NCBI RefSeq assembly: GCF_025526975.1
Contig: NW_026515691.1
Coordinates: forward strand, 1-64,000
DNA: 64,000 nucleotides
Direction: 5' to 3'
Source: Fimicolochytrium jonesii
Lineage: Eukaryota
Below the pieces are notes generated by a model. It was given only the letters and a program-made list of their open reading frames with translations, did not search any database and was not told the DNA's origin. The position numbers and the translations under genes are program-made. Below, piece by piece: positions 22,561 to 63,144 of the stretch (its first letter is position 1; the number at the start of each line of letters is the position of its first letter).

Positions 22561-22580
22561 GGGGGGGGGGGGGGGGGGGG
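22561..22580. repeat. Poly-G tract (20 nt) just beyond the Harbinger ORF2 stop codon
   Basis: Read directly from the sequence. Confidence 0.9.
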
Positions 22581-26458: not shown

Positions 26459-27570
26459 TCTGATGAGTTTTGTATTGATGTGTTGGTTTCAAGGGAAGTA
26501 TATGAAGGCTCGCGGGCGGGTTATTAGGCTTGATAAAGGAAATTGAAATGGGAGGACTGCTCGAAGAGCTGCCTTTTTATAAGGATGGGATGCTGACAAA
26601 GGGCTTCGGGACGGCGCATCAACACCTCAGGTCTACCCTTATGACTACTAGTGTTGAACCGTTTTGGCTCAAGCTGGTCCAACGTCATGATGCATTCATC
26701 GAAGGCTGAGGATTTGTGAGGGATGCCAAGAGGGATTCCTGTCAGGCTGTCAGTCCGCCGATTGACGCGAAAAAAATGGCCGAGTTAATCCACTGTAACA
26801 CGGTTCGCGTTACGTTGAAAATTTACAAGGGAGCCGTCATAATGATGAAGTACAGTATATCCGTATCGTAGCGGAAGAACCAGTCTCTGATAGATTTAGA
26901 GCGGTGACGGTCTTATGAGTGATGGAACTGACGGTAACCTGACAACGTCAAAGGGATCTGCGTAGTCTTTTGCGGGACGGGGCTCGCAGGAACTTCCGAA
27001 GGATTTGGCGCGACATGCGCCCAAAAACTGTCAATTTACCCGAAATTCCGAATTCGACACCGCGACAGAAATTGGTAACCACCGAGCTTGCAATTCCCAG
27101 TGGGTGGGAGAGAGGAAAGTCCGCGCAAATAAAAACGTCACGTGACAAATTTGGGACCCAACGCAGCTCTCGCACCTTTCTCGAGAGTTCGACTTCCGAC
27201 TGCCATTTTGGTTCCATTTGCCTCTGCGATCACCCTGTTTCTGTCATTACCACCTTCATCCCAGACAAGTCGGCGGTCCTCAACTTGCACCCAGGTAGGC
27301 ATCGGGCTTTCCTCTCCTCAGGCTTCTGTCTCCTTCGGCTCATGTCCCGTGTGAATCCGAACATCATGTCTGATGGCGTCCCACTTGTGTCATCATTTGA
27401 AATCATACACTCACAGCGCATCTCTCTACTTCTAGGCCCTTTTTCCGACCAGCACTCTACTGATACTGGTTGGCCTGTATTCATACACATAGAAGTCTGG
27501 CAAAATTTAGACTCATTCAACCCAACGAGGCTTGTGATCTAGTCGTTGAAGGCGCTTGTCGTTCAACACC

Positions 27571-30500
27571 ATGGCGCGCATCAAGCGTAGCCCACATAAA
27601 AGGGTGGCGGCGCTGGTACGTAATATTTCGGTGATGCGTACATATTCTGTGGGGATGGTGTATTAATACTTGTCAATTCTGCTCAAAGCCGGCAGCCGTC
27701 AGTGCGTATATCTCCACCCTCGCGGAGGCCCCTGAGGCGGATATTCCACGTCATGTGAACGAAGTCGAAGTCTGGCCGTTTCCAAAGACGGATTTTCATC
27801 ATTGGATCCCCGTTCTCAATCGGTTCGACTCGATTTTGGAAACTCTGAATGACCAGTATGATATGAAACATATGCAAAGCAAACCCTTCACGGCGGAACA
27901 CAAAATCCTACTACTCGCAATATTGAACTTTACAACAAGCCTCTGGAAGCATTGTACAAACCGGAGTTTATACAACTCTTACGAGGTGAGCTCAGCGTAT
28001 TCATGCTGGCATCCTTTGCGAAGTGAGTTTCTGATGTGTATGGTTCATCAGCATCTCAGCGAGCTGATCTACACTGGAGATTTGGATGTGCTGTTGGCAA
28101 CCGTCAAACTGGTGTACCGACCCGCGCAGCGATTGGGAAGTCAACGATCCCTGAGAAACACACTGGGCACCGCCCAAGAACGGATCAATGTTTTGGCGCA
28201 GCATTGGGGAACAAAGCAGCTCGGATTGGATCTCGAACAGCTGGCGCAAGACATCGACATCCCGGCGGAATGCAAAGCATTGAATTTTCAATTTTACCGA
28301 ACAGCTGCGAGTACCGACACCACGGCTGCGGCGGACAATCGGCTGGCTACAACGCTTGCGCTCAAGCCCCCACGCACGCCTAAGCCTGCAGGGGAGGCTT
28401 CGGTAGAGAAGCAGACGGATGGTCTCGTTGTCATCAATGTTCCGGACGTGGCTGGGGCGGGCAAAACGGATCGGGAGCTCTTCATGGAATTGGCGGAGCA
28501 ATATCGAGTGCCTGAGGAGCATAAGTTCTCTTTGCTTCAAAAGATTCGACTGGCGATGGCCATGGGCGACTTGCACAGCCGTCGGAAGATGTTGACTATC
28601 CGAATTCTCGCCGTCGCGGTGCTGGTCATACTGGGCAGTGAAGACACGATTCAGAGCAAATTGTTCACTTTTGAACCGGACCTCATACAAAGACTGGCAG
28701 ACATGTTGCAAAAGGACCTGGGCTCAACGGTATGCACCATTTGGGCTTTCTCATCTGGTTCCCTGAGGCTGACTATGTTACCCGGTAGTCTGAGGTTCAG
28801 GAATTGCAAGCAGCATCTTTGTACGCATTGGATAGCTTGGCACACCACCGCGCGCGCTTGAGCGAGATACTCACCGCTGTGAACGCGTCGGCAAACCACG
28901 GCATTCTCATGTTCGTACTCCGGAAAGTTATTACTTCCTTGGATGCACCTGGTATGCGACCTTCCGCGGTTCTCCGCTTGTGGCTCTTACTAAATTTGAA
29001 TTACAGTTTCAGATTATACGCAGGAGTACATAGATGCGTTGTTCGGCTTTGTAGCATACATCGCGTCGACACAATCCGGAGGGAACATGATTATTACTGC
29101 GGGAATATTGCCCGTTCTTGTGCAGTTAATGATGAACACTCGACAGGAGCATATAAAGGTCCGTTGGATCTTTAGCAACGTCGCAGTCCCTCACATTTGA
29201 ACTTACCTGCTACCACACAGTCTGTCACGAAATGCGTCCTGTTGCTCGACAGTCTCGTCTTTGGCTTCAGTCCGTCATTTGCCGCATTCGCTGCAGCCAA
29301 TGGCTTGGAAAATCTGGTTCAAAGGATCCAAGTGCGTTCAGGGTTGTGTTGTGTTAGCTTGCGGCGTGAAGGATGCTCAATCTTTGTATAGGACGAAATC
29401 GGCATATGCATAAGCTTGGCACCGAGTGATCCGATGAGTATCGTCGAAGATTCAGGCGCGCAGAGCGCACCAGCGGGCACAGGTGGGATGCAAGGCGATA
29501 TTGGCAGATGATCACTGTGAAAGCATGCTCACTGGACTCTAACAACAGATTTGCCTCACGAGCGGACGTCTTTGCTGCGTGCGTTGTTGAAATTCGTGTT
29601 GCACATGATGCAGACGTCGGGGACCGCAGACCGCATGCGGAACTTGATCGAGACCACATTACCCAGCTCGTTGCTCACGATATTTGAGCAAACCAAACTT
29701 TTTGGGGCTAGCGTCTTCGGTCTAGGTATGTTTGAGAGGTCATCGCGATGACCTACCTGCTCCTGATTAGCTTGCTGACTTTGCACTCTTTCAGCTGTGA
29801 ACATTATGTCGACCTTTATCCACAATGAACCGACGTGTTTGTCGATCTTGCAAGAAGCGAAACTACCTGAAGCTCTTCTTCATGCGGTGTCGAAGGACAT
29901 ACCGGTTTCGGCGGAAGTGATATCGGCTTTACCAAATGCTTTTGGCGCAATATGCCTGAATCAAGCCGGATTGGATCAGTTCAACGAGGCAAAGCCGATC
30001 GAGAAGTTCCTTCAGGTCTTCACTTCCGAGGAGCACTTGCGAACCTTACAAGACAATGATGTCCCGCATCTTGTCGGAAATTCCATGGACGAGCTGATCC
30101 GTCACCATCCCAGCTTGAAGGAGTATGTCTTGTCGTCCATCATCGGAATGCTGAAGCGGGTGGTGGAGATGGGAGAGGACGCTACACCCGACGACCAAGA
30201 AACGTCGACCTTACGCACCGTTAAGATGACGTCAAATGCCTCGAAGACGGATGACAATGCGGAAGATGAGAAGAAGGAACCGCGCATCGCGCAATTTATT
30301 CATCTGGTTGCCAGGGTAAGACCTTTCAATGCATTGTCGGACTTCCATGTAATACTCATGCCGTCTTCTCAGTTTTTGGAAGGGCTCTTCCAAAATGTAG
30401 CGCACTGCAAAGATTTCATCAAAATGGACGGCGTACAGATCCTATTGAAGTGCTACACCCTTCCGACCTTGCCATACGATTTCTCCTCTTCGGCGTCGTC

Positions 30501-33500
30501 GTATTCGCTGTCGTACCTGTTCCGCGTCTTGATCGAAGTCAACTCGCAGCCGGTTGTTACTCATATGCATGCTGAGATTGATCAAGCACTGAAGGACGCT
30601 GAATCTTTCATCAACCACGAAGGGGATGAAGGAATCATCATCCACTACATTGATATTCGAGGTATGTGAAGTCGAGTATAGGTTTCCGCCCAGAAGACTG
30701 ATAAAAAATGCTTCTTCAGACGATGACATCGATCGCAAGGAGAAGGGTCAAAAGATCCTCCGCACATTGATCATCCTGCAGGGTTTCATCCGACTCATTT
30801 CCGACATCTACTGCACGCATATCTTGACGCATAGCAAGAGCGTCTCGGGATTGATTCAGACTTTCTCCGGAGAGATTGGATCGAAATTGATCAAAGCTTT
30901 CGGAGCTCTCTATCGGTGAGTGACAGCCATAATACCTTTGGACTCTGCGGTTCGTAAATTCTCATACCTTTTCTCATTCCAGCACATGTCTTTGGGAGAA
31001 TCTTCTTCTAAAAGAAAAAGTGCCGAAGCCTTGGTATCAGTCCGCCTCGAAAAAGCACGAAAGATCTAGCATTACCCGCGGGTCGATGGCGAGCTCACTG
31101 CTTGACGTTGACGTGCTGGACTCAGTCTTGGACGCCAATACGACTGGAGTCCCTGCGTCGAATGAGGAGGGGGCGTCGGCGGAGGTTTCGGACTCGAAGG
31201 ACCCCAGAGTCAAGAACACTCGATACTTCAAGCACCTTCTGTCGCAAATTCCCACAGTACTCACTCCACTGTTGCAAGGCATCTTGAAGTTGCTTACCGC
31301 ACGGCGTATCACGGAGTCCTCAAATCGGAAGACGAGTCAAGTGGTTATCGACGGTATTGCATCTCTCCTGCGTGATCACCTCATGTGGGACCGTCCAATG
31401 CGCACTACTTCTATCAACAAGTACAACTACCTTTCTGTCGTTCTTGGCTTCATGTCGGTTCTATTTGTAGAGGGTACTTGTCCCGCCTTGCTGTCATCTG
31501 ATTCAACCGTGTCCTTACTGACATCTATCCTTCAGAACGCACTTCTATGGCATTGAATACGAACTTGGTTGTTGCATTCCACAAATCGGGCGGCACCAAA
31601 TGCGTCCTCGAGGTGTTTGAGAGTTTGTGGGATAGAGCTACCGAGCTCAGTGGATCTGGACAAAACAGCCTCAGTGAAGACGACAAGGCAGTTTTGGCGA
31701 GAATCCACGGCGCAATCGAGATTTCTTTGAGCGTTCTGCAGACACTCGCCAATGGAAAGCTGGTTCACGAGTCGCCTCTGACGGCCAATCTGAGCAGCCG
31801 TGAAAGGGACAAGGCATCGCCCGACTACTTCGATCCACACGACTATCTGGTGGATGTCCGTACCCAAATGGCGCCACTGGTTCTTCGCGTATGGCGCAGC
31901 AGTTACCTCGACCGCGCACCCGCCAACATTGTCAAGGGCGCTCTAATCATCGTGACGCACATCGTTAAGGGAGAAGGAGAAACTAGCACGAAGACCGATG
32001 CGTCCGGGTCGCCAGCATTTCCCTTACTCGCGTCCAGCATTTTCAGCCGGCTGCCTCAGCCGGTTGCCGTTGACGAAGACAAGGTTCAGCAGTTGGTGGA
32101 CATGGGTTTCCCTAGGGCCGCTGCCGAAACAGCGCTGACTCGATGCGGAAATCATGTTGCACGGGCAGCCGAGTATCTGTTGACTCATCCAAGTGTTGTT
32201 GCTGCTGCAACCTACAACTCAGCTCGAAGCAATGCCAACGGGACGGGAGCGGCGGGGTCAAGCGAGACACCTGCAGCGCCGTCATCTTCGATTGCAGCAC
32301 AGACAACCGAAGCCTGTGCTAATGCCGATCATTCTGGAGCGGATGCTGCTGCGACACAATCCGAGGCCGTTCCGATGGACACGGAAAGCGGCGCTGAAGC
32401 AGAAGATCTGGATGAACTAGCTGCAGCGTTGGCTATGTCAATTGAGCAGCCTGTACAGAGCATATCTGGTGAAGCTGCCGCGACGGAGGGTGCTGGTGAT
32501 GCAATCGCCATGGAGGTTGATCCTCCAGCAGAGCCTGCAGTTACGGAAGACAAAGGCAAAGGAAAAGCCCCGGATATCAACATCTTGGAAGCGGCTCGTC
32601 ACGATCTGAAAGAGGAAATTCCCATTCGATGCCTGCAGTTACTCGACAACGTCGAGGATGTCATCTTCCAAGTCAAAGAATTGATCTGCTTGGTTGGAGC
32701 CGCAGACATCCCCAAGACCATCGATCTTCTTGTTACCGACATCGAAAAGCACCGTGAGGCTGCTTCAGTCGCTGGGAAGTCCTTAGCTGTTCGATTACGG
32801 TTGTTCGCCTTGGTTGTCAGTGATAGCACTTGGCAGAAAGTAGCTATCGAGTCGTGTCCTCGCCTTTTGGACAGTCTCTTGAAGATGACCAAGTCGGATG
32901 GCACAAATTCGCCCTGGTTGCCCTCTGTTCTGCTCGTCTTGGAATCCTACATTTCTCTGTCTGACGAGCCGAAACCTGCAGACGCGAAAGGCAAAAGTAC
33001 AGCGGAGAGTTCTGCGGGAAGTCCTCACCGACCGCTAAATGCGGTGGAGAGGATGGAGCTGTTGACAACACTAGTGTCTCTCATGCGGTTGGAGAACGTG
33101 GATAAAGAAATGCTTCATGCGGTGTTGCGTTTGACTGTTCGACTTACACGCTTCCATGGACTGGCCGTTGAATTCGCCCGCTTGGAAGGAATCCCTTTGC
33201 TTTTCGAACAATCCCGAATCGGCTTGTTCCAAGCTCAGCCTGCTATGACTGTCATGATCCTCCGTCACGTCATTGAGGACTTCAATGTTTTGAAATCGAC
33301 AATGGAAAGGGAAATCGCAAACTGGTTCAATTTCCCACGCCAAAGAATGATGGACATCAGCAGCTTCGTCAAGAACAACAGCCATTTAGTCAGCCGCGAT
33401 TTACAGGCCTTCATATCAGCAGTAGCTGATACATGCTTCCTGCCACGGTTTGATCCTGCATCGAAGACGTCTGTCATAACCCTCAAGCCGAAAGAAGAGG

Positions 33501-36500
33501 AGAAAACCGATGTCTCCCCTCCGGAGGAAATCACTCTCGAAGGCGTGGAGAAACCGTCGGAGCCACAGCCGATGGACATCGAAGGCCCAGCAGCAGTTGA
33601 CCCTAACGCCTCGATGACCAGTGCGCCAACCATTGAGCAATTGAAGAGTCTATATTTGTCGGATGTTTCCGAGACGGTAGTGCAGTACTTGGTCAATGAA
33701 GTGCTAGCTCTCAAACATACTTCCGCTGGGAGCCCCACGCTGCAGACCCTACCGTCAGGTTCTGGAAGCGACGCGAAACATGCGGAGGACAAGACTGCTT
33801 CCAGCAGCACTGACGGGTCCATCTCCCCAGAAAGCGTTCACCTAAAGCGGTGCTTCTTACTCCAATGTTTGTCGGAGCTCGTTGTTTCGTATCCCACCTG
33901 TAAAATCGACGTCATCAATGCGACTCAAAAGCGATTGAAAGGAACACCGCACAAAGGATCGTCAGGCCGTAATCCGTTCCTGAATCATCTTCTGCATGAT
34001 CTCCTTCCCCATTCGATCAAAGCCCAAACGGAATCACCACTTGACTTGGCCATTCTGACCCCTGAACTACAGAAGGACTTCATGGAAAGCCAGTGGACAA
34101 TCAGCGTTATTTCTGGACTCTGCTTGGGCGTTACAGCGGATCTTGCGGAAGAGCGGAAATTGTACCCAGATCTGGCGCATGTCAGGCGCTGCGTATTGGA
34201 TGTTATCGCACGATTCCTGAAGGATGCTGTTAACCATGCCGACGTTCCTACACAAGTGCGATACTCGAGGTTCTTCGCGGCAAGCGACCTATGCTTCAAG
34301 CTTCTGACGGCACGTGGTCCCGCGAGAAGCACGACTTCGCCAGCAGCAGCAACACCGGAGATGGATGACATCCCGACCCATTTGGCTCGCGCAATGATGG
34401 AGAAAGGATTCGTGACGCTGCTGACTCAGGTCCTTGCGGAAATCGATTTACATCATCCCGAGAGCAAGAGACTCGTTAGTGCAGTGCTCAAGCCGTTGGA
34501 ACTGCTAACCAAGTTGGCCATCAAATTGGGCAAGACTGTGGAAGCTCGTTCCACGGTCAAGGCCGATGCTGGTGGTGCAAGCGCTGGCGGGGTCGTCCCA
34601 ATGGAGGAGACTAACACTGAGCTTTCGGACATGATCCGCAACTCAGCGCTTGGGATGTACAATGCGCCCACAAGCGACGACGAGATGGATGAGGGCTCCA
34701 CAGGTGACTCGGAAGATGAGGATGGTTACGACGACTTCTCAGAAGATGACCTCACTGGTGACGAAGATCTTGACGATGAAGAGGTGAGATACGGATATCT
34801 CTCCCGGGAAACTCCACGCTTGATATTGAATCTTCTCCCTAGGGATCTGATGTTGACGACGATATGGAAATTGTTATGCCGCAACCTTACCAGGGGAACC
34901 CAGACCCTTCGACAGAGGACGATGAGGATGAAGATGACGATGATGATATGGACGACGACATGGATGACGACTTAGGCGATGAAGAATTCGACGATGATAA
35001 CGAAGACGACATTGTTGAGGAAGGGGATGAACCCGATGAGTCCGATGCCGAAATGTCCTGGGACGACGGTCATGTCGAGTATCATGATCTGACCCCAGAC
35101 CGGAGAGTGTCAGAGGCACATAGTGATGCCCACCAACACGATCATCTTATGGACGCACTGGCTCCTGAGCGGGCTCGTTTAGGTCATGACGAAGCTCACG
35201 AGGAAGCCGACCAAATGGATTCTGATGGAGACGCTCCCGAAGTCATTGACGATGAAGACGAAGACTCCGAGGAGGAGGACGAGGACATGGTTGATGACAT
35301 GTACGACGACGACAGATTCGTCGATGGGGAGGAGGAAGAGACTGCATTCTTTCCTGTCGGGGGTGGCCCGGGATTGGCACATCGAGGATTCGGCCTTCTT
35401 CAGCATTCGCGCGGGTCTCGGCCTAGGCGAATCGCCAGAAGACAAGTGATGGAAGTGGATATGACTCCGGGAGGAGGTGTTGACATCCACTGGGTGCCGG
35501 AAGACGGAAACATCCAGTACGTGGATGGAGGTGATTTCCAGGTGTTAGGAAGACCACTTGGAATGCGTCAAACGGGCAACGAAGACATCATGACGCATCC
35601 ACTCCTGGTGAACCAAGCTCCTGCTCCAACAGCCGAGGCGCGCTATGGGATCACCGACCGCGCTCGCGGCCCTGCAAGCATTCGCGCGGGTGACGTACTT
35701 GATTGGCAAGCGTTCGACAACATGATAGGAGGGAACGCTCTGCAAATCCTCGAGCAGCTATTTGCTCGAACTGGAGCTGCATCTCAATATCGGGTGGAGG
35801 TTCCTGGGTTGCCTGACATGACTGGTAGCATCGCCGCTGGTGGCTTAGTAGCAGGTCTACCACTACCGGGGAGAGCTGCAACGCTACCGGTTTCGACACC
35901 TGTGGCCGAAGGTAGCAACTCGCAAGAGCAGAGCGTTCAGCGCACAGCGTTTGAGGAGAGGATTGCTGTCATCCACGGCTTCGCTCCGTTAGGTACTAGT
36001 GAGCGCTGGTGGCAGGAAGCTCGGTTGATGTACGGCACTTCCGTCAATGACAAAGGCATCAGGGCAGTGGATGCGGTTGTCGAGGCACTCAAACCAGCTG
36101 CAATGGAGGCGGCACAAAAGAGGAAAGAGAAAGAAGAGATCGAGAAGAAGCGACGGGAAGAAGAAGCCGCCAAGCGGAAAGAAGAGGAGGAACGGAAGCG
36201 GAAGGAAGAGGAGGAACAGGAGCGTTTGAAGAAAGAAGAATTGGAACGGCAGAAACGCGCTGAAGAAGAGGCTACCGCCGCAAGTCGGGTACAAGACGAA
36301 GCGCACCCATCCGCGGCCCCGGATATCCCAGCCGAGCCTGAAGTACAGGAAGCAAGTGCCAGCCAGGAGTTACGAATCGACACAAATGCTGCTCCACCAG
36401 AACGAGTGATAGTAACTGTTCATGGCAATCCAGTAGACATCACAGGTTAGTTGGCCCGTTGGAAAAGGATCGCAAATCGATATGTTCAACTCAATATATT

Positions 36501-39500
36501 GCAGGGTCCGGGATCGATGTAACCTTTTTGGAGGCGCTACCGGACGATTTGCGTCAGGAGGTCATCAATCAACACCTCGGAGAACAACAGCGCTCTCAAC
36601 GAGCTACTACTGTTCCACCGACCATCAGCTCAGAATTCCTAGATGCTTTACCGGCGGACATTCGAGACGAGGTACTGGCGCAGGAGCGGAGAGAACGAGA
36701 GCGGCGCGAAAGAGCTAGTCAGCCAGCTGCGGCAACTACGAGTGCTGGGCCAATGGAAATAGATCCTGCCAGCTTTTTGGCGACATTGGATCCCTTACTA
36801 CGACAAAGTGTTCTGCAGGAATCAGACGACGGCTTTTTGGCCACTTTACCGCCAGGATTGGTTGCGGAAGCCAATGCTTTCCGAGGACATCGCGCTCGAA
36901 GCCGATTTGCAGCGTCACAGCAGGCGCGATCTTTAGCAGCTGGATTGTCAGCTACTGGTCAACCTTCCGCTCTACCGGGCAAACGGCCTGGTCATCGCGA
37001 AGCCGTCCACTTACTCGATAAAGCCGCTCTGACAACACTGATCCGTATGCTTTTCTTGCCAGAGAACGTTGGCAAACAGCTGATTCACAAGACGCTTGTC
37101 AATCTTTGCGAGAACTCCAAGACGCGATTGGATCTCATATCTCTCTTCCTGTCGATTTTGGTGGAGGGAAGCACGGACTTGGCGTCTGTGGATAGAAGTT
37201 TCGCGCAGATGTCCATCAGAGGGAAGGGGAAGTTCGCCCTTACACCGAAGAAAGGACCAGCTACTCCTACTCCGCCAACCACCGCGGGAACCCAGGGAGA
37301 AAACGGTCCAAATATCGTCGCGCAACGATGTTTGGAGGCCCTCACCCAGATGGTCACCTACAATGAGGGTGTGGCACGCTTGCTCCTGGTGGAGAATGAG
37401 ATGCTAGCCAACAACCCGTTCAAGACGCCGAAAAAAGGCAAGGGCAAAGAGAAGGTCACCGACAACAGATATCCCGTAGTCGTCCTCCTCAGCCTTTTGC
37501 AACGACCGACGTTTTTGAACAGCGCTGAGTTGATCGAACAGCTTATGCATATCATATCCATCATTCTGCGCTTGTCGACCATCATGACGCAAAAGGCGAA
37601 GGAAGCGAGAGCTGAACAAAAAGCCACGGACAGCACATCGCCGACTGTTCTTCAGGATGTCAGTTCAGTTCCAGCTAGTTCTTCAACGGCCCCTCCTCCA
37701 GAGGAACCTATTGTTCGAGTTGAAGCACAACGGCCAACCCAAACACCGAAGAAGCCTACCAACAGCAGTGTCACAGAATTCAAGCCACCCTCCATACCGG
37801 AGCAGTACGTGTCAGCTGTAGTCAAAGTCCTCACGACCGCAGTATGCTCTGGCAAAACATTCCAATACACACTGTCTGTGGTCCAACATCTATGTTCCTT
37901 AGCAAACAACCGTGAGATCATCACGCGCGAGCTCACCTCGGTCGCTCAGGGTCTCGGCGATGCTATGATCCCCGATGTCGATGAACTGATCGTCGTCCTT
38001 CAATCCGCCAGCACTGCAGTTGAGGTTCAGAGTGCAACTCTTGGGAAGTTCTCACATGCCGGTGCCCTTCAAGCAAAGTTGCTTCGAGTCTTGAAGACGA
38101 TGGACTTCATTCACACGAAACACGGGCGACACCAGGAGAAACAGGCAACGAATGCCCCTCGCCCCGCACCTTCAGCTGCAGATGCCACTCCAGGGACAGG
38201 AGAGGCGTCCGCCGTTCAATCAGATCAGCAGGAGTCGCCAGTGGCCTCCGAAAAAGACAAGGAGATCGACTTGGAAACCAAGTTGACAACCATGTACGAT
38301 TCCCTTCAGCTGCCGAAGCTCTGGCAGAGATTGGGAGCTTGCCTGAGCATCATCAATGAGAAAGATGCACTCATTCATGTCGCTACTGTACTCCTTCCGG
38401 CCATCGAGTCTTTCATGGTCGTTTCCAAGCCGTATGTGATGAGGAAGAAGCCAGTGGTTGCTGCCACGACGGTTCAGACACCAGCTTTGAGCAGGGTCCC
38501 TACGCATCAATCCGCGGATCTTGCGAAAAACAACGAGGAGCTTTTCGTTTCTTTCACAGAAGAGCATCGGAAGATCCTGAACACAATGGTCCGGAATAGC
38601 CCGTCGTTGATGAGTGGCTCTTTCTGCCTTTTGGTGCAAAACCCGAAAGTACTGGAATTCGATAACAAGCGCACGTACTTCAACCAGCAGCTGCATAAGC
38701 GAACAAGTCGGGACCACTACGGGAGTCTGCAGATTAACGTCCGGCGGCAGTACGTCTTCGAAGATTCCTATCACCAACTGCAAGGCAGATCCGGGGATGA
38801 GATCAAGTTCAGCAAGCTGAACGTACGGTTCTATGAAGAGGAAGGCGTGGATGCCGGCGGAGTCACCCGGGAATGGTTTTCGGTTCTCGCTCGTCAGATG
38901 TTCAACCCTGACTACGCTCTGTTCCGTCCCTCCGCCGTGGACAAGGTCACCTACCAGCCTAATCGACTCTCTGGTATTAACCCTGATCACTTGTTGTACT
39001 TCAAGTTTGTTGGTCGCGTCATTGGAAAGGCTATCTACGATGGAAGATTATTGGATGCATACTTTACCAGATCATTCTACAAATCGATGATCGGCGCCCA
39101 AGTTGACTACAAGGACATGGAGGCCGTTGACCCAGAGTTCCACAAAAGTCTTGAGTGGATTTTGCAGAACGACATCACCGACGTGCTTGATCTGACGTTC
39201 AGCACTGAGATCGACGAGTTCGGGAAGAAGCAGACAATTGATCTCAAACCGGATGGTCGTAACATCCCTGTGACGGAGCAGAATAAGCACGAATACGTCA
39301 AGCTCGTCGTGAACCAGCGTCTCGTTACTGCCATTCACTCGCAAATCGAGGCCTTCCTTGGCGGTTTCCACGACGTCATTCCCAAAGATCTCGTCAAAAT
39401 CTTCAATGAGCAAGAGTTGGAGCTATTGATCTCTGGCATGCCTGACATCGACATCGACGACTGGAAGAACAACACCGAGTACCGAAACTACACCGCTTCT

Positions 39501-39931
39501 AGTCCACAAGTTCAGTGGTTCTGGCGGGCTGTCCGAAGTTTCTCGCAGGAGGAGCGTGCCAAGCTGGTGCAATTCGCCACTGGCACCAGTAAAGTGCCCC
39601 TGGAAGGGTTTGCCGAAATCCAAGGGTCAAGCGGAACGCAAAAGTTCCAAATACATAAGGACTTCGCCTCTTCCGATCGATTACCCAGCGCCCACACCTG
39701 GTAAGTAAGGGTTTTCTTGGCAACCGCTATGGTCCATTAGACTAACTGCATTCATTTCAGTTTTAACCAATTGGACCTCCCTGCGTACGAAACATATGAC
39801 CAACTTCGCGCAAGTTTGCTACTAGCAATATCGGAAGGTGGCACTGGTACGTGTTCAGTCCGTTCCGTACCTTTTTGAAGATGAGGGTTCTAACACTTTA
39901 GCTGCTTTATCCAGGTTTCGGATTCGCTTGA
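27571..39931 (+). CDS. TOM1: HECT E3 ubiquitin ligase Tom1/HUWE1, multi-exon
   Basis: N-terminal 'DFHHWIPVLNRFDSIL' (DUF908), DUF913-like region, UBA domain 'LVDMGFPRAAAETAL', acidic region, UBM repeats 'FLEALPDDLRQEV', HECT 'EEGVDAGGVTREWF', catalytic 'SAHT(C)|FNQLDLP' split by an intron, terminal GFGFA-TGA. Confidence 0.97.
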
Positions 39932-44829: not shown

Positions 44830-47800
44830 ATGTCCTCCAGGAATTCTGCCCCTAATTCCCCTGCCACACCACGGAGCAGTCGGCAACGACGACAAGCACT
44901 TGAGCCCATTGTACGGCAGGATGAATCTCAGGACACAGCGTCGACCTTCGGAGACTCGGCAACACCGTCCGGACTGACCGGCGCAAAGTCGCTGTCCCGC
45001 TCGTTAACGTCCTCTGTCCAACGAGACAGTGCAGGGGCCAGAACTCAAGGCGACGTCTTCTCTGACCTCGAGAATGAACAGTTAGGCGAGGACCAAAATG
45101 GGGGTCAGCAGAAGCGGGGAGACGGTCGTCGTGCTGCGGCTGCCTCTCAAAGCTCAGTTTTGTCGTCACCTTTGATCCGCCGTGATGTACCGATGGGAAC
45201 GGACCCACCGGGAGGGGCCGCTCAATCACCTGCACCAAGGAAGCGCACAGCTGCTGGTAAGTTCGTTTGCCTCTGGTTTATTTGTCTCATGGGTGTTAAC
45301 GAACTCCTATGCAGACACCGTTGGATCTCCCCTCGCGTACCCACCTTCATCGGACGGCCCTGACCGGAGACGACGCCAGAACCCTTTGTCGCAAGTCACA
45401 GATGGCTTTTCCCGAACCTCCTTCTCTGGCTCTGGCGCTCGCGCATTAGGATCGACCCCTCGCAACCGCCGTGGTGATATTGCAGGCAACCGTTTCGTTG
45501 ATCGTCTCTTGCAAGCACAGCAAGATGGCAGTGAAGGACCGGTTGGTCGGAATCTTTTGGATGCCTTCAATGGTATTGGGATGACATCTGAGGGCGACGT
45601 TGCTCAATCTGATCCCGCCGCCGTTACGACGGTCATCTGGGGAACAACGGTCAATATGGCACAGGCGATGAATATGTTCAGGAACTTCATATTGAACTTT
45701 TGTCGGAATGATGCGAATGCGGGAACGGATGACATGGAGACGGACTCTGTGCCGTTCTATCCTCGGTTGCTCCAAAACGTACGTTCGTCTAGTTCAACTA
45801 CGAAGGCGATGCCTATGCTGATGCGTTACACTCTCTTTAGTTGAAAGACAGCGAACGGTACAACATGAACTTGGACTGCTCGAACATTCGTAGCTACAGG
45901 CCGTCTTTGAAGCTGTACCACCAACTCCAAAGATACCCTCAAGAAGTCATCCCTCTCATGGATCATGTTCTGTCAGAAATTGCACGGGAAATGTTCGATG
46001 ACTTCCCTGAAGGTGTCCAAATGAGAGTTCGTCCTTTCAATCTGGAAAGATCCGTGAACTTGAGGCAGCTAAACCCATCGGGTACAGTCTTTCATGTTCC
46101 GGAATTGAGTTGACAAATGGAAGTGCTAAAGTTCTTTGTTTCTACAGACATTGATCAGCTCGTGACGGTTAAAGGAATCTTGATCAGGTCTTCGCCGTTA
46201 ATTCCCGACTTGAATCTAGGTAGGTGCCATACCGGTGGCCACCAGAATTGTTGGTCTCAGACGCCATCTTTAACGTCATTGCTTTAGCTTTCTTCCGGTG
46301 CCATGTTTGTGATCACACCGTAGAGGTCGAAACCGATCGTGGACGGGTCGACGAACCTACGAGATGCCCGCGTGAGGCTTGCAAAACACAAAACTCGATG
46401 AGGCTGGTCCACAATCGATGCGTGTTTGCCGACAAACAGATTTGCCGTCTTCAAGAGACCCCCGATGAGACACCCGACGGTCAAACTCCGCACACGGTCT
46501 CGATGTGCATATACAATGATCTCGTCGACGTGTCCAAAGCTGGTGACAGGGTGGAGATCACTGGTATCTTCCGTGGAGTCCCTGTGCGTGTTAACCCCCG
46601 TCAAAGGGCTATCAAGGCCCTCTTCAAGACTTACGTGGACATTGTTCACATCAAGCGCACTGACGACAAGAGGCTCGGTGTAGACAAAAGCATACATGCT
46701 GAAAACGAATACACAGTCGACTTTGATGAAGGCGATAGTCTCCAAGAGGCCGATCCCGTTCAGGAGCAGACCATCATTGAGCTATCCCAACGGCCGGACA
46801 TGTACGATCTTCTCTCGCGCTCCATCGCGCCTTCGATCTTTGGATTGGAAGATGTCAAGAAAGGAGTTCTCTTGCAACTGTTTGGAGGGGCCAACAAGTT
46901 TAACAAAGAGAAGCCCGGAACGCCGCGTATCCGTGGAGACATCAATATCCTGCTGGTTGGAGACCCTGGTGTCAGTAAATCTCAATTGCTCGCTTACGTG
47001 CATAAGGTTGCGCCCAGAGGTGTCTACACATCTGGAAAAGGATCGTCTGCTGTTGGTTTGACGGCGTATATCACAAGGGACCCGGATAGCAAGCAACTCG
47101 TGCTGGAGAGGTAAGACTCTGAAATATGTCATGGTGGACGAAGGGTGGAGCTGACATGGTTCTGCCTTAGTGGTGCCTTGGTGCTGAGTGATGGAGGAAT
47201 CTGCTGTATCGATGAATTCGATAAAATGTCGGACTACACCCGATCTGTCCTTCACGAAGTCATGGTGAGCATCTGGTGTAAGCATATACCAGTTTCGAAA
47301 GCCAACGCTGTTTTGCAGGAACAACAAACTATCTCCGTCGCTAAAGCTGGCATCATCACAACCCTCAACGCCCGTACATCCATTCTTGCATGTGCGAATC
47401 CCATCAAGTCCAAATTCGACGAGAACCTCTCTGTTATCGAGAACGTGAACCTCCCGGCACCATTGCTATCGAGGTTCGACCTGACCTATTTGATCTTGGA
47501 CAAGCCGAACGAGCGCGACGATCGCAGATTGGCCCAGCATTTGGTTGGGTTCTATGTTGGAGCTGAGGAGCTTCAGCGGCGATTGGTGCACATGGACGAG
47601 TTTGTGGTATGTGCTCTGTAAGCTGGATCTTCAACCGGAGACAATCCTTTGACGAATCGCGTAATTGTGGTGTATTTCAGCCCATCGAGACGTTTGCAAA
47701 GTACATCAACTACGCACGGTCAAAGATCAACCCAGTCATCTCTGAGGATGCTGGTGAAGCGCTGATTGACTATTACGTGAAGCTGCGGAACATGGGGAAA

Positions 47801-48457
47801 GATGGCGGCAGCAACACCGTCACGTTCACAACCAGGCAGCTGGAGAGTATGATTCGGTTGGCTGAGGGACATGCTCGGATGAGGTATGGGAGGATGCTGG
47901 TATTTGGAAAGCGAGAGGCCTCAGTCCTGACCAAGTACTTCTCTTTCAGGCTGTCTTTGACTGTAGACAGGATTGATGTCGACGAAGCCCATCGGTGAGT
48001 GGTAAATTGCGGCGGATCTCTCTCCTCTGCTTCCTTACTCACAGACCCCTCCGTTTTAGCTTGGTCCACACCGCCCTTCAGACCGCCGCCATCGACCCCA
48101 AAACCGGATTGATCGATTTAGATCTCGTCAACACGGGCATCAGCTCCCGATCGCGACGGGTGCATGCGGACAAGCGAGCCGCTTTGCGAGCGCTTCTTCA
48201 GAACATGGACCGCGTTAGCGTCAAGTGGGTTGAGGCTTTCCGCATGTTTGGGGACCAGTCCGATGAGGTAAGACACTGCCGCATTTCACTGGCAAATGAG
48301 GGTCGCCTCAACTCATCTCACCCGCGTTGTTCTTCCCCAGCACATCCCTGAATACGAATTCAACCAGCTACTGGACGAGCTGTCGGATGAGGGTTCGGTG
48401 CACGTTACAGGGCGTAGCAATGCTGAAAAGATGATTCGCAAGACGGGAGGGATGTGA
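44830..48457 (+). CDS. MCM4: DNA replication licensing factor MCM4, multi-exon
   Basis: S/T-P-rich N-terminus, 'VIWGTTVN', zinc finger, '[18 protein letters not shown]', Walker A '[11 protein letters not shown]', 'IDEFDKM', arginine finger 'LLSRFD', '[18 protein letters not shown]'. Confidence 0.95.
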
Positions 48458-48809
48458 GATGAGTTCGGCAGAGCGAGGTCAACTTGGCGTTGTATGAAAG
48501 ATTTCGGTGTTGGACAGCATTTGTGTATATCTGAGTTTTCAAGACCTGGCTTCCTTGTAATATATTCATGCAGGCGTAGATGCTTTGTTTGGGATACCTA
48601 CACATTTGCTATCGGACAGACGCCAAGAGAAAGTTTTCCTTTTTTGAACTACGCTTGGCTGGGAAGATATCATTTTCATTCACTACCTACTATGTACAAT
48701 GGCCTTCGGCCTCAATAAACGACTCCTACGCAAAAAACTCTTCCCGCAATACTATCGGCTCAGAAAGGCACTTCGGACGCGCTATGCGTTGAACGGCTCA
48801 TCAAGCCAA

Positions 48810-49667
48810 CTATCTACCATACGCCTGGCTTCTCTCGCCATCTTCCTGATGCTCTGATCGATGTTGCTCTCCTTCAGCACCCTGTTCGTGGTGACTGGCG
48901 CGGAGGTCCTCATCCGCTCTTCTTGTAACGTTGATGCCACCTACGTAGATTTTTGACCCATGAGCAATGAGTCTAAATTTTCCAGACATATCCGACGCTA
49001 CTTACGTTGTGCCACCTTGATCTTTGCGATATTGGGGCCTTCCCCTTTTGCCTTGTAATAACTCAGCTTTCCCTCGACAATAACATATGCCCTACAAAAC
49101 CAAGGAACGGTTCCTCAATAACCGAAGTAAACTGTCTCCCACGTTAGAATAAAGGGTATAAGTAGTCCGTACCCCTTCTCAAAGTCTTGAGGCAGCTCTC
49201 CCTCGAGCTGGACCTGGTGCCACAGGAGGACGTTCTTCCATTCCCCCGTCTCCGGATTCTTCTTGCCCTCCCTGGTCACAACAGGAAAGTTCCACCTACC
49301 CGTCCCGTCTTTGAACTCCACTCTCCTCGCATCATCACCGACGCGACCGTGTACGATGACCTTCTGGTAATCGGCTGCGGGCAATTCTAGTCGTTAGAGT
49401 CGGTGGAAGCATAGGACTGAAAGTGTCCTTTTCACATGGAAGATGGAAGGGTCTCATGGACGCGGAACTTACGACGGAGGAAAGCGGCAGGAGTTGTGCT
49501 TGTGAATGACTAGATCGAAGAAGATAGAAAGACAAAAGGTTCGCCCGGTAAGCAAGATGGTTTCATCTGGCCGCGAGAGATGACCTGTCACTGGCCGGGA
49601 GACCCTCCACACTCACCCTTGCTTGACGCAGGACAGGACAGGCCCGGCGAGCCTGAGTGAGGAACAT
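48810..49667 (-). CDS. RIM1: Mitochondrial single-stranded DNA-binding protein (SSB OB-fold), multi-exon
   Basis: Presequence 'MFLTQARRACPVLRQAR'; SSB fold 'KVIVHGRVGDD...WHQVQ...FEKG|AYVIVEGKLSY'; TAG at 48810-48812. Confidence 0.75.
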
Positions 49668-50109
49668 TCTTATCCAAGCTGACAGCTTCAGATAAATGCG
49701 ATACGGTGAGAGGACGCTTGCTGCTCGCTCGGTTGGAAGTTGATGAGTTGTGGGGGGCTGGGAGGGAAGATTGTTGACGTGAGCAGCGGGAGACTCCTTG
49801 CGACGTGCGGATGTCCGAACTGACTGCTGCGCCACTTGCCCGTCTGGGGTCTACATTTACAACACGACATGCTGGTGCACGGCTTTCCATCTGCGCTCTC
49901 TCATCAGCGCACTTCCAAAGCTGGCTCCCAGGGCACATCACCTGCAAGTCTCTCGCCAAAAAGGTCTCTCTGTGGGAAGATAGGAAACGAACGGCTCGCA
50001 ACTCCGGCGCCGCACACGCAGTACGTACACAAATCCCCGCTAGCGGTCATAGATGCTGCCTCTGGTTTCGTTCTCGGAATGGAGCAGAGCGCGTGCATCC
50101 CGCGGAATA

Positions 50110-50949
50110 GCGGGCAGGGCAGTCTGACCACTACGGCTTTCACCCCAGACGGAGATATGGAAAGCTAGTAGGCTGTGTGTGACAGCCAAATAGCTAGGGT
50201 CTTCCTTTCTGGTGTGCCTCCTGTCCCATCCGGACTGTCGAGGCTCTGAGAGGATACCCCGAGTAGATGGCTGCTCACGCTCACCGAAACACTTTTCTCA
50301 CCTGATGGGAGAACCTAACCCTAAGTGTGTGTCGGGGCGTTGAGAATCGTGTTCGAGCAACCTGGCTGGAGACGTCTGTTTGTGCACGTCTGCGTTCGCG
50401 CAGATTGCTTTGCTGAACAGAGCCGTCTCTCTGCCTGCTCACATTGATGCTCCGCTTTGACGATGGCTTTGGTCATCGCCCTCATGCCCAGTATTTTACG
50501 GCTGTCTTTGACTGGGTTTCTGCTTGGGCAAACGCCCAACAGAACAAAAAAACTACAAGACGGTCTTAGGTCGCTGCCCGTACCTGTGTTGATATGTGTG
50601 TGCGGCTTGCCATTGCGTGCTTTGATCTTTCCTATCGAAATCGGGCTGGGGACGTACATCACCCCACGGAGACGCCTTGACAGCGGATGAAGACGATCTC
50701 TGCCATGCCTAGAAGCTGCAACCTTCGTTGGAGTTGGGGGAAAGTTTCGCAACAAAGGAGGGAAAACCGTCGGTAACCCTCGGGTAGGCCGTGCGTTAAA
50801 GGTTCGTCCTTGCTATTCCCTCCCGACGCGACATTGCTGCCTTTTTGGAGGTGTGCAAATTCCCTCGGCTTATACCAAACAGCGCTGCAAGTGGCGATAA
50901 TGGGCTTGGCATCGAGACTGTCTGGAACGTCTGTCTGGAGGACTTGCGG
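50110..50949 (+). ncRNA. Candidate telomerase RNA (TER/TR); ends approximate
   Basis: Template CCTAACCCTAA (50314-50324) directly after a hairpin (50295-50313); H-type pseudoknot (50487-50565); enclosing helix 50117-50129 / 50569-50579; CR4/5-like three-way junction (50757-50823) with P6.1 AAGG-UUCGU-CCUU; no credible protein ORF. Confidence 0.8.
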
Positions 50950-51280
50950 GTAAGTGGAGTGTGTTGTGGGATCATGCGCTCCCCTGCCCAAATTTTTTAC
51001 CTCCTGACTTGCAAGATGTCGGTCTTTGAACTGAGTATCAGTGGGATTCTGGTCTTTCAGAACCCCTCGAACTCACTTCAAAGGTCCCTCTGCAGTTTGC
51101 GGGAAATAAGAATTAATGCAATACTCCTTGGGATTGCCAGGGTGCGCCAAAGGCGGAGATTTGTCGGTCAAATTGTCGGTCACAACTGTCGATGCTATTC
51201 CCCAGCTTAGCAATATATGCAAAATGTGGCAAACGTAGGTACAAAGTGAACGAGGTTTGCGGCACCCCATGTTGCAAGTG

Positions 51281-52252
51281 CTACCTCCATGGCCGCCGTT
51301 CACTCGGTGGCCGTGCTTTTGTACTGGTCATGGAATGTGGTCTCGCCCGCATCGCAATCTCGCTGGGATGCCAATGCGTAAAACCACTCTTCCAGCATAG
51401 CCTCCCCTTCCCTCCTGTCAACCTATCCGCATCGTATCTCGAATCGACGACACCAGCGTCCCTCGTTCTCCATCGACCACCAGGCCTCGATCTCGAGGTA
51501 GCCAGCACATCGTCTTCGGCAAGAAAATCGGTAAGCGTGCAGCTAAAGTCGACCTCGGCTTTCGTCGAAGTACGCAGATATGGTCGACGGCCATCTACCG
51601 TGGGTGGTGGGCATCCGCGCTTCGGTATTGGACGCGAGTGCGGGTCGCGCTTTTCGTTATGCGAGCGTCGTGCCTGTGCTAGTCTTTTGGTGAAGTTGTG
51701 CAGTGCCAGCTGCGGTCGTGGGATTTGGGTTTGAGATGGAGGGACCGTTGTTCTGCCGCGCTTTGTGGGTTGCGGCGGTGGTCGGTGCGCTGTAGGGTCT
51801 TTCGGCTCAGCTTTCGTGGTCGGTCGCCCGTGATAAGCTCTCGTGTAGATGTTGCTCGAAGGTGCAGGTTTGCGCGTATACGACGCAGGGATCTTTGGCC
51901 CCTTCGACGAACACCCTTCCCTCCAGCGCCTTCTTCCCCTCTCCGCATCCTCATCGCCTTCCATCCCCACCCGAGCGTTCCGCATGCTCCCTCCCGCCTC
52001 CGCATCCCGCACATCCACACAGCCCCCCGCCACCGTCGAAATCACACCATCAATCTCCCTGTCACTCGACGCCGAAATCAGCCCTAATACCTCGGCGAAC
52101 AGGTTCTCGAGCTCGTCGCGCATGACTGTTATTCGTCCCGCTACACGCTCGGCATCGTCTAGCATTCGTAGGTATTCGGCTTCTGAGCCTTGCGGGATAT
52201 TGGAGGATTCGGATATCGAGTGTAGTTCTGGAATGTCTGATGTGTCTGACAT
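51281..52252 (-). CDS. Hypothetical protein (N-terminal coiled coil, basic low-complexity C-terminus)
   Basis: 323-aa ATG-initiated ORF, divergent from MIX23. No recognisable domain; exon structure uncertain. Confidence 0.45.
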   Translation of the reverse strand: MSDTSDIPELHSISESSNIPQGSEAEYLRMLDDAERVAGRITVMRDELENLFAEVLGLISASSDREIDGVISTVAGGCVDVRDAEAGGSMRNARVGMEGDEDAERGRRRWREGCSSKGPKIPASYTRKPAPSSNIYTRAYHGRPTTKAEPKDPTAHRPPPQPTKRGRTTVPPSQTQIPRPQLALHNFTKRLAQARRSHNEKRDPHSRPIPKRGCPPPTVDGRRPYLRTSTKAEVDFSCTLTDFLAEDDVLATSRSRPGGRWRTRDAGVVDSRYDADRLTGGKGRLCWKSGFTHWHPSEIAMRARPHSMTSTKARPPSERRPWR

Positions 52253-52586
52253 GGTTGATTGCTTTGTGCCTGGCGCACGACTGTTTTTGCAACGAGGCTA
52301 TTAGCAATCTTGAATTGCGAGCAAGATGAAACAGACGGAGACCTACAGAACATGTATGGATCGATAGAGAGCCCCAGGCTCCTGGTTCTTGCAAAAAGCA
52401 AAGCAGCCATGATTGAGGCCGCCGCCATGTTCGACATATTTCCGGACGGCCGACGCTTACGTTAACGCGTTCGAGGCTTGCAACATCATCCACTCGGAAG
52501 TTCCGATGTTCGGTAAGCTCCTATTCCCCGGCCAGTAGATCTAGACCTGCTACTCTGTGTAAATCTTCGTCCCTAAAACAACCGCA

Positions 52587-63116: not shown

Positions 63117-63144
63117 GGGGGGGGGGGGGGGGGGGGGGGGGGGG
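63117..63144. repeat. Poly-G tract (28 nt) upstream of the Mei2-like gene
   Basis: Read directly from the sequence. Confidence 0.9.

What the first reader, a model, noticed from the sequence alone, without database searches (positions are those of the whole stretch)
50885..51015. Possible spliceosome-defined 3' end of the candidate telomerase RNA
An 8-bp stem, CUGCAAGU (50885-50892) / ACUUGCGG (50942-50949), closes exactly at a consensus 5' splice site GTAAGT (50950-50955). A branch-like CTGAC (51004-51008) and an AG (51014-51015) follow, giving a 66-nt intron in non-coding DNA. Fission yeast and filamentous ascomycete TERs obtain their 3' end from the first step of splicing. If the same applies here, that mechanism would extend to early-diverging fungi. 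I see no canonical Sm site directly upstream and no ACA box, so 3' protection may work differently.
Basis: partly seen in the sequence, partly recalled or inferred. Interest (0 to 1): 0.7.

Follow-up and report, generated by a model that had tools for sequence, protein, structure and literature searches.

The report
Chytrid telomerase RNA 3' end
This is the tail of a likely telomerase RNA gene in a chytrid fungus: the splice-site-like letters are there, but the RNA is predicted to fold past them and likely ends about 50 bases further on, at a U-rich protein-binding site like that proposed for smut fungi, rather than being cut there by the splicing machinery.

Summary
All motifs are at the stated coordinates. 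The window is from the chytrid Fimicolochytrium jonesii. The upstream RNA has a template, boundary hairpin, pseudoknot and a canonical CR4/5 with a 4-bp NUNGN P6.1, so it is very likely telomerase RNA (about 0.88; no orthologue or RNA data obtained).

The proposed 3' end is poorly supported. The 8-bp stem has probability 0.00 in all 12 larger folding contexts, because its 5' strand belongs to the long CR4/5 arm. The AAG acceptor is poor and only 8 nt from the branch. It matches the putative Sm site of Ustilago and Malassezia TERs and starts two bases after the last predicted paired base.

Best reading (0.6): an Sm/Lsm-protected end near 50998-51007, with GUAAGU internal. The donor is strong (10 bits, above 23 of 25 real donors) and donor plus branch with no good acceptor resembles S. 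pombe TER1, so cleavage at 50949 stays possible (0.15). 3' RACE and Spizellomycetales orthologues would decide.

The parts
50064..50999 (+). Candidate telomerase RNA, about 0.9 kb; both ends inferred from folding (the 5' end could lie near 50009)
   Evidence: Fold z=-5.2 on + and -2.4 on - strand, 20 shuffles each; contexts
50064..50642 (+). Template-pseudoknot domain, closed by a long predicted helix 50064-50129 / 50569-50642
   Evidence: Constrained folds; a different pairing wins when 50000-50040 is included
50295..50313 (+). Template boundary hairpin
   Evidence: P=0.95-0.99 in all contexts that contain it
50315..50324 (+). Template CUAACCCUAA for TTAGGG repeats
   Evidence: Only copy of this 10-mer on either strand of the window; about 0.8 unpaired
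50487..50565 (+). Pseudoknot: stem 50487-92/50511-16, U-run 50494-97, stem 50500-08/50557-65, inserted hairpin 50518-44, A-run 50546-52
   Evidence: Read from the sequence; complementarity scored; no covariation available
50643..50668 (+). 5' strand of the predicted basal helix of the second domain; pairs with 50965-50989
   Evidence: Duplex -32.5 kcal/mol, 11 of 2000 shuffles as good; P 0.76-1.00 for its three main helices in two of four contexts, absent in the other two
50679..50935 (+).
   Evidence: The four helices tracked have P=0.94-0.99 in 12 of 12 larger contexts
50757..50823 (+). CR4/5 three-way junction: P5 50757-64/50816-23, P6 50765-97, junction A50798, P6.1 AAGG-UUCGU-CCUU 50799-50811
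   Evidence: only such P6.1-type motif on the + strand of the window; consensus 4 bp + NUNGN from PMC3592445
50885..50949 (+).
50950..50955 (+). Consensus 5' splice site-like GTAAGT; probably internal to the mature RNA; use unknown
   Evidence: 10.0 bits; partly paired in a 5-bp hairpin 50942-46/50951-55 or in a local hairpin
50965..50989 (+). Segment inside the supposed intron whose 3' part is paired in every context tried (basal helix, local hairpin 50948-64/50974-89, or 5' region); C50989 is the last paired base
   Evidence: C50989 unpaired probability at most 0.01 in 4 of 4 contexts; basal and local forms within 3 kcal/mol
50991..50999 (+). Sm-like site AAUUUUUUA; likely marks the mature 3' end
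   Evidence: opening cost 0.4 kcal/mol; consensus AAUUUUU and AAU5-6CY in basidiomycete TERs
51004..51015 (+). Branch-like CTGAC and poor AAG acceptor; alternative acceptors end at 51041 (CAG, 34 nt from branch) and 51060 (53 nt)
51037..51095 (+). Second intron-like cassette after the U-tract: ATCAGT, CTCAC (A at 51075), CTGCAG; 59 nt; weak, found after the fact
50659..52428 (-). Public orphan gene model (514 aa) whose last exon 51007-50659 is antisense to the finding; probably a spurious model

Best explanation
The stretch is likely the tail of a chytrid telomerase RNA whose mature form likely runs through the GUAAGU to the U-rich site AAUUUUUUA at 50991-50999, where an Sm or Lsm ring would protect a 3' end predicted near 50998-51007. 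Shown in the sequence: template, boundary hairpin, pseudoknot complementarity, CR4/5 motif, U-tract, splice-like motifs. Predicted: two abutting folded domains (50064-50642 and 50643-50989) followed by a single-stranded U-tract. Inferred from other fungi: a longer Pol II precursor (poly(A)-like AATAAG/ATTAA at 51105-16) is shortened by termination, endonucleolytic cleavage or trimming until the bound ring stops the exonuclease, as proposed for Ustilago and Malassezia TERs, where no cleavage intron was found. On this reading the GUAAGU/CUGAC pair is chance or at most a minor side path.
For: TER anatomy: with P6.1 consensus. C50989 paired in 4 of 4 contexts, and the U-tract at least 0.92 unpaired throughout in 3 of 4; opening it costs 0.4 kcal/mol, while opening the whole donor-to-branch stretch costs 26.8. 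50960-92 pairs with 50640-70 at -32.5 kcal/mol: 11 of 2000 shuffles and 3 of 5816 window tiles, itself included, as good; that helix starts at the base after the first domain ends and also appears on the reverse strand. AAT5+ arises in 97 of 5000 shuffles per 200 nt; 0 of 25 real introns hold a T6 run. Ustilago: AUUUUU 9 nt before the mapped end and no 5' splice site; Ustilaginales AAU5-6CY; Malassezia AAUUUUU and no cleavage motifs.
Against: No RNA data, no orthologue, no covariation. The donor is among the strongest in the window and is followed by CTGAC at 57 nt (real 39-59); under the strict rule that is a 0.3-2.3% coincidence. The donor is not clearly masked: opening cost 5.6 kcal/mol in the full RNA, within the 2.8-10.9 of real donors measured in local windows. 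At domain level the pairing of 50950-89 is not significant: 23 of 150 shuffles folded as well. Its partner is context-dependent, and the U-tract is partly paired in some contexts (about 0.5 unpaired; 0.2 in the largest). The site lacks the G of the yeast consensus AU5-6GR. U-tracts between donor and branch are known features of fungal introns (recalled).
Confidence: 0.6

Rival explanations
1. One reading: the spliceosome cuts at 50949|50950 and releases the 5' exon as mature TER. The second step fails because the first AG is too close (8 nt) and the next CAG too far (34 nt). The end would be protected by structure or an unknown protein instead of Sm/Lsm.
For: Donor 10.0 bits, CTGAC branch, no good acceptor at 14-21 nt; a long branch-to-acceptor distance is what stalls S. 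pombe TER1. H. polymorpha has GUGAGU cleavage without a consensus Sm site; no canonical Sm site was seen in N. crassa. An RNA ending at 50949 can pair its last bases weakly.
Against: The stem offered as the terminal element does not form. The branch UCCUGAC is not the fully U2-complementary site that S. pombe needs, and the donor has neither +1A nor +3C. No U-run is left near the cut. An exact basidiomycete-type Sm motif and an extended complement of 50643-68 would both have to be chance inside the discarded intron.
Confidence: 0.15
2. Both signals work: the mature RNA ends at the U-tract, while cutting or splicing at GUAAGU is a side path that removes the Sm site and the closing strand and so limits TER level.
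For: Accounts for both uncommon motifs at once; donor accessible; Kannan et al. suggest that cleavage can compete with maturation as regulation.
Against: No expression data; no example of an Sm site inside a TER intron in the papers read; loose rules give donor+branch in 11-27% of shuffles.
Confidence: 0.1
3. Sm-site end made by spliceosomal cleavage further downstream, at the non-canonical AUCAGU (51037), then trimmed back 38 nt to the U-tract. This is compatible with the best explanation and specifies its cutting step.
For: Order Sm, donor, branch, acceptor as in Aspergillus and fission yeasts; +1A and +3C each block step two there; geometry typical for this fungus (59 nt, branch-to-AG 20 nt); 59 of 20000 shuffles under my strict rule, 163 to 361 of 5000 under looser rules.
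Against: Pattern chosen after seeing the sequence; AUCAGU is not a donor in any TER I read about; with G at +1 it scores only 0.8 bits; its branch ACTCAC is also the minus-strand donor of the annotated model.
Confidence: 0.08
4. The RNA is a Pol III transcript and T6 at 50993-98 is its terminator.
For: The only T6 in 49900-51300, right after the last helix; plant and ciliate TERs are Pol III products.
Against: Internal T5 at 50842 and two T4 runs; no TATA or B-box match; 0.9 kb is long for Pol III (own knowledge).
Confidence: 0.05
5. The region is not a telomerase RNA; it is the antisense of the annotated 514-aa gene or plain intergenic DNA, and all motifs are chance.
For: A public gene model covers it on the minus strand; Rfam finds no telomerase family; no orthologue or transcript was obtained.
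Against: The protein has no relative among 1.84 billion representatives, pLDDT 0.33, a last-exon codon score of -0.02 against 0.14 for held-out MCM4 and weak splice sites. Four TER elements occur in the right order on the + strand, and the + strand folds far better than shuffles.
Confidence: 0.1

Closest known systems
Ustilago maydis UmTER/ter1 and Malassezia MgTER 3' ends (PMC9564094, PMC10035886, PMC12506658; passages read)
   Same: Template, TBE, pseudoknot, CR4/5 with P6.1, then a putative Sm site AAUUUUU without the terminal purine; no canonical donor after it
   Different: Here a consensus donor lies 41 nt before the U-tract; the tract is followed by AC, not CY; no convincing + strand host ORF found, whereas UmTER is cut from an mRNA
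Schizosaccharomyces pombe TER1 spliceosomal cleavage (PMC4299874, parts 1-3 of 5 read)
   Same: Canonical donor, a branch site and no well-placed acceptor near the 3' end of a TER
   Different: In TER1 the Sm site overlaps the donor from the 5' side and the branch is fully complementary to U2; here the U-tract is inside the would-be intron and the branch is UCCUGAC
Aspergillus/Neurospora and S. cryophilus/S. octosporus TER ends (PMC3603654 passages; PMC4299874)
   Same: U-rich site near the end; the downstream AUCAGU cassette has the same order of parts
Hansenula polymorpha TER (PMC3851723, passages read)
   Same: Canonical-type donor (GUGAGU) with an RNA form ending at it and no consensus Sm site
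   Different: It has a perfect UACUAAC branch and U-containing candidate sites just before the donor; here neither
Vertebrate H/ACA telomerase RNA (PMC4993307 passages)
   Same: Same template type, U-rich pseudoknot, 4-bp P6.1
   Different: No hinge H box and no terminal ACA here

Membership tests
Telomerase RNA (fungal/vertebrate core) | Single-stranded template of about 1.5 telomere repeats matching the organism's repeat | tested here: inconclusive
   CUAACCCUAA unique in the window and about 0.8 unpaired; this genome's telomeres could not be read; TTAGGG is reported for the chytrid Batrachochytrium
Telomerase RNA (fungal/vertebrate core) | Template boundary helix just 5' of the template | tested here: met
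   Hairpin 50295-50313, P 0.95-0.99; prediction only
Telomerase RNA (fungal/vertebrate core) | Pseudoknot with U-rich loop and A-rich strand 3' of the template | tested here: met
   Both stems complementary; 0 of 118 chance pattern matches had the full second stem; triples not tested
Telomerase RNA (fungal/vertebrate core) | CR4/5 junction with 4-bp P6.1, NUNGN loop and junction adenosine | tested here: met
   50757-50823; consensus
Telomerase RNA (fungal/vertebrate core) | Covariation across orthologues; Rfam match | tested here: inconclusive
   No orthologue obtained; no Rfam telomerase hit
Telomerase RNA (fungal/vertebrate core) | Expressed, binds TERT, templates repeats | not testable with these tools
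   No sequencing run was listed
Spliceosomal-cleavage TER end, S. pombe type | Sm site directly 5' of, or overlapping, the donor | tested here: not met
   No U4+ run between 50847 and 50992; U-tract is 41 nt downstream
Spliceosomal-cleavage TER end, S. pombe type | Branch site fully complementary to U2 | tested here: not met
   TCCTGAC, not TACTAAC; U2 sequence of this fungus not checked
Spliceosomal-cleavage TER end, S. pombe type | Long branch-to-acceptor distance | tested here: inconclusive
   8 nt to AAG, 34 nt to the next CAG, against 14-21 typical; met only if the AAG is skipped
Spliceosomal-cleavage TER end, Aspergillus/Neurospora or S. cryophilus type | Donor with +1A or +3C downstream of the U-rich site | tested here: inconclusive
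   Not met by GTAAGT 50950; ATCAGT 51037 has both changes but is weak and post hoc
Sm-site (snRNA-type) TER end, basidiomycete type | AAU5-6 motif, single-stranded, at the 3' end after CR4/5 | tested here: met
   AAU6 at 50991-98, mostly unpaired; following bases AC differ from the Ustilaginales CY
Sm-site (snRNA-type) TER end, basidiomycete type | Mature end maps at the site and Sm/Lsm binds | not testable with these tools
   Needs RACE and immunoprecipitation
Box H/ACA TER end | Hairpin, hinge ANANNA, hairpin, ACA three bases from the end | tested here: not met
   Only ANANNA (50872) sits in an internal loop of the arm; no ACA after 50879 up to 51120

The most novel reading that the evidence does not exclude
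A chytrid telomerase RNA uses a fully canonical GUAAGU donor that lies upstream of its Sm-like site. First-step cleavage there either makes a mature end protected without Sm/Lsm, or acts as a switch that cuts away the Sm site and the closing strand of the CR4/5 arm. Either would place spliceosomal action on telomerase RNA before the origin of Dikarya, in an arrangement not found in the papers I read.
Probability: 0.22. Interest if true: 0.75.

Novelty: new member of a known kind. Interest (0 to 1): 0.42.

Why it matters
My literature searches found no validated telomerase RNA from a chytrid (the only early-diverging candidate seen was an unconfirmed ciliate-like RNA in Lichtheimia; subscription papers are not covered). 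Animals finish TER through H/ACA, Dikarya through Sm, and spliceosomal cleavage is held to be ascomycete-specific. A chytrid TER with a mapped end would date these routes. An Sm-type end would push snRNA-style maturation back to the base of fungi and keep cleavage a later invention. An end at 50949 would overturn that order. One RACE experiment separates the two.

Tried and rejected
Own genome: none held, so telomeres, TERT and U snRNAs could not be checked. Sequencing runs: none was listed; this is no evidence on expression. Rfam: 0 hits on the window at E up to 1; 4 weak unrelated hits on 50050-51150 at E up to 10. Earlier-finding look-ups by place and sequence were empty. Qi et al. 2015 is not held. 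My first P6.1 assignment (50838-53, note) was dropped for 50799-50811, which fits the consensus. Pairing of 50973-81 with the 5' region 50087-95: strongest isolated duplex but 7.6 kcal/mol worse in the full RNA; the forced pairs for it were off by one and were redone. TER inside a host intron from GTACGT at 50022: donor under 5 bits and no long ORF across the junction. The automatic branch calls include likely wrong ones (distances 6, 28, 34), so I used the 11 CTRAY introns. The donor-opening comparison in 240-nt windows (candidate 13.9 against 2.8-10.9) cuts off the arm, so I did not count it as evidence. The candidate intron is not unusually structured against real introns (z -1.1). No tRNA. 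No supplementary files were read; alignments in the supplements of the Ustilago, Malassezia and Aspergillus papers could refine the Sm-site comparison.

Full report
Source and setting. The finding lies in a gap between a divergent minus-strand gene that reads like a mitochondrial single-strand binding protein (my reading of the sequence, not searched; start near 49667) and a minus-strand ORF at 51281-52252.

Is the host a telomerase RNA? Very likely. On the + strand, in order: a hairpin at 50295-50313 (P 0.95-0.99); CUAACCCUAA at 50315-24, the only copy in the window, about 0.8 unpaired; a pseudoknot with stems 50487-92/50511-16 and 50500-08/50557-65, a U4 loop, an inserted hairpin and an A7 run; and a three-way junction with P5, P6, a junction adenosine and the hairpin AAGG-UUCGU-CCUU. 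That hairpin fits the 4-bp, NUNGN consensus of P6.1 (PMC3592445, passages and section 19 read; PMC4993307, passages) and is the only such motif on the + strand (one on the - strand). 50060-51000 folds with z -5.2 on the + strand and -2.4 on the - strand (20 shuffles each). TTAGGG telomeres are reported for another chytrid (PMC11797018, two passages). Against: no Rfam hit, no orthologue, and a public 514-aa gene model whose last exon is antisense to 50659-51007. That protein has no relative among 1.84 billion representatives, a model pLDDT of 0.33, a low codon score in its last exon and weak splice sites, so I take it as spurious. I put TER identity at about 0.88.

The observation. All motifs are where stated. 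The 8-bp stem forms only in the isolated 86-nt piece (P 0.72 at 37 C, 0.11 at 22 C). In 12 of 12 larger contexts it is 0.00, because 50880-50935 is the 3' strand of a long arm that carries CR4/5, with helices at P 0.94-0.99; forcing the stem costs 8.5-12.3 kcal/mol. About 3% of positions close some 8-bp stem by chance.

The intron signals against the fungus's own introns. I mapped 25 annotated introns (16 in TOM1, 9 in MCM4); they are gene-model introns, not checked by RNA here. Lengths are 54-74 nt. The donor at 50950 scores 10.0 bits, above 23 of 25 leave-one-out scores. The acceptor at 51015 scores -0.2, with 1 of 25 as low, and AAG is used once in 25. In the 11 introns with a CTRAY branch the distance to the acceptor is 14-21 nt in 10 and 6 nt in one; the candidate has 8. 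AGs within 8 nt of a CTRAY were skipped in 3 of 4 cases. So a 66-nt intron is unlikely as drawn; the next CAG gives 92 nt and a 34-nt branch distance. This cuts both ways: a good donor and branch with no fitting acceptor is what stalls S. pombe TER1 after step one (PMC4299874, parts 1-3 of 5 read). Chance: 0.3% per 150 nt and 2.3% for the whole gap under the strict rule; 541 to 1336 of 5000 shuffles under looser rules, which themselves recover only 7 to 11 of 25 real introns. A scan for donor of 8 bits or more plus CTRAC gave 17 sites in the window, at least one antisense to the TOM1 coding sequence, so such pairs do arise by chance.

AAUUUUUUA lies at 50991-99, inside the supposed intron. AATTTTT occurs twice on the + strand and once on the - strand in 64 kb; AAT5+ arises in 97 of 5000 shuffles per 200 nt; 0 of 25 real introns hold T6. 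It matches the Malassezia consensus AAUUUUU (PMC12506658, passages) and nearly the Ustilaginales AAU5-6CY (PMC10035886, passages). In U. maydis AUUUUU lies 9 nt before the mapped end and no donor was found there (PMC9564094, passages). The segment before it is paired up to C50989 in 4 of 4 pseudoknot-constrained contexts, and the U-tract is free in 3 of 4; opening it costs 0.4 kcal/mol. With a 5' end at 50040-50075 the partner is 50643-68, which starts at the base after the template domain closes, giving two abutting domains and then the U-tract. That duplex is -32.5 kcal/mol, matched by 11 of 2000 shuffles. The weak points: at domain level 23 of 150 shuffles fold as well; a local hairpin that buries part of the donor is within 3 kcal/mol and wins in some contexts; the U-tract is largely paired in the 1.3-kb context.

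Weighing. In the fission-yeast and Aspergillus TERs the U-rich site comes before the donor or overlaps it (PMC3603654, passages); in Yarrowia the best donor candidate is also downstream of the Sm site (PMC6746865, passages). A cut at 50949 would discard the U-tract and the paired segment and leave an end with no U-run. The donor has neither of the step-two blocks +1A or +3C, and the branch is not the perfect U2 match. Counter-examples exist: H. polymorpha cleaves at GUGAGU without a consensus Sm site (PMC3851723, passages) and N. crassa showed no canonical Sm site. Qi et al. 2015 could not be read. A second cassette after the U-tract, ATCAGT-CTCAC-CTGCAG at 51037-95, has the known order and typical spacing. 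It was found after the fact and its donor is weak; I give it 0.08, as a version of the U-tract model. An H/ACA end is not met.

Novelty. Searches for a chytrid or other early-diverging fungal TER returned no validated example; PMC4133162 (two passages) offers an unconfirmed ciliate-like candidate in Lichtheimia. An unchecked note of this scan reports a roughly 750-nt candidate in Spizellomyces; I could not compare sequences. The RNA is a probable new member of a known family in an unexplored lineage. The 3' end claim as written is not supported as the leading model, but it is cheap to test and either outcome dates the maturation routes of fungal telomerase RNA.

Noticed in passing
   Followed up: yes
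window 50009-50020 with 50595-50606: A 12-bp complement (P 0.99 when 50000-50040 is included) offers an alternative closing helix, so the RNA's 5' end may be near 50009 rather than 50064.
   Followed up: partly
window 50834-50858: A second hairpin (UUUUUGG tip) branches from the arm below CR4/5, forming another three-way junction; role unknown.
   Followed up: partly
window 50950-55 with 51007-12 and 50942-46: GUAAGU is complementary both to the ACUUG just before it and to ACUUGC that starts at the branch adenosine; GACTTGC occurs at both places.
   Followed up: no
window 48790-49667, - strand: Intron-containing gene that reads like a mitochondrial single-strand DNA binding protein, head to head with the candidate RNA; a shared promoter in 49700-50050 is possible. 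Name from my reading, not searched.
   Followed up: no
window 15158-19042, - strand: Ty3/gypsy-type retrotransposon pol frame of 1294 aa with protease, RT, RNase H, integrase and chromodomain matches.
   Followed up: no
window 22561-22580 and 63117-63144: Pure G runs of 20 and 28 bases.
   Followed up: no
window, around 26000-39930 and 45100-48457, + strand: TOM1/HUWE1 ubiquitin ligase (16 introns) and MCM4 (9 introns in the public model; relatives' models are up to about 200 aa longer) served as splice-site references.
   Followed up: partly
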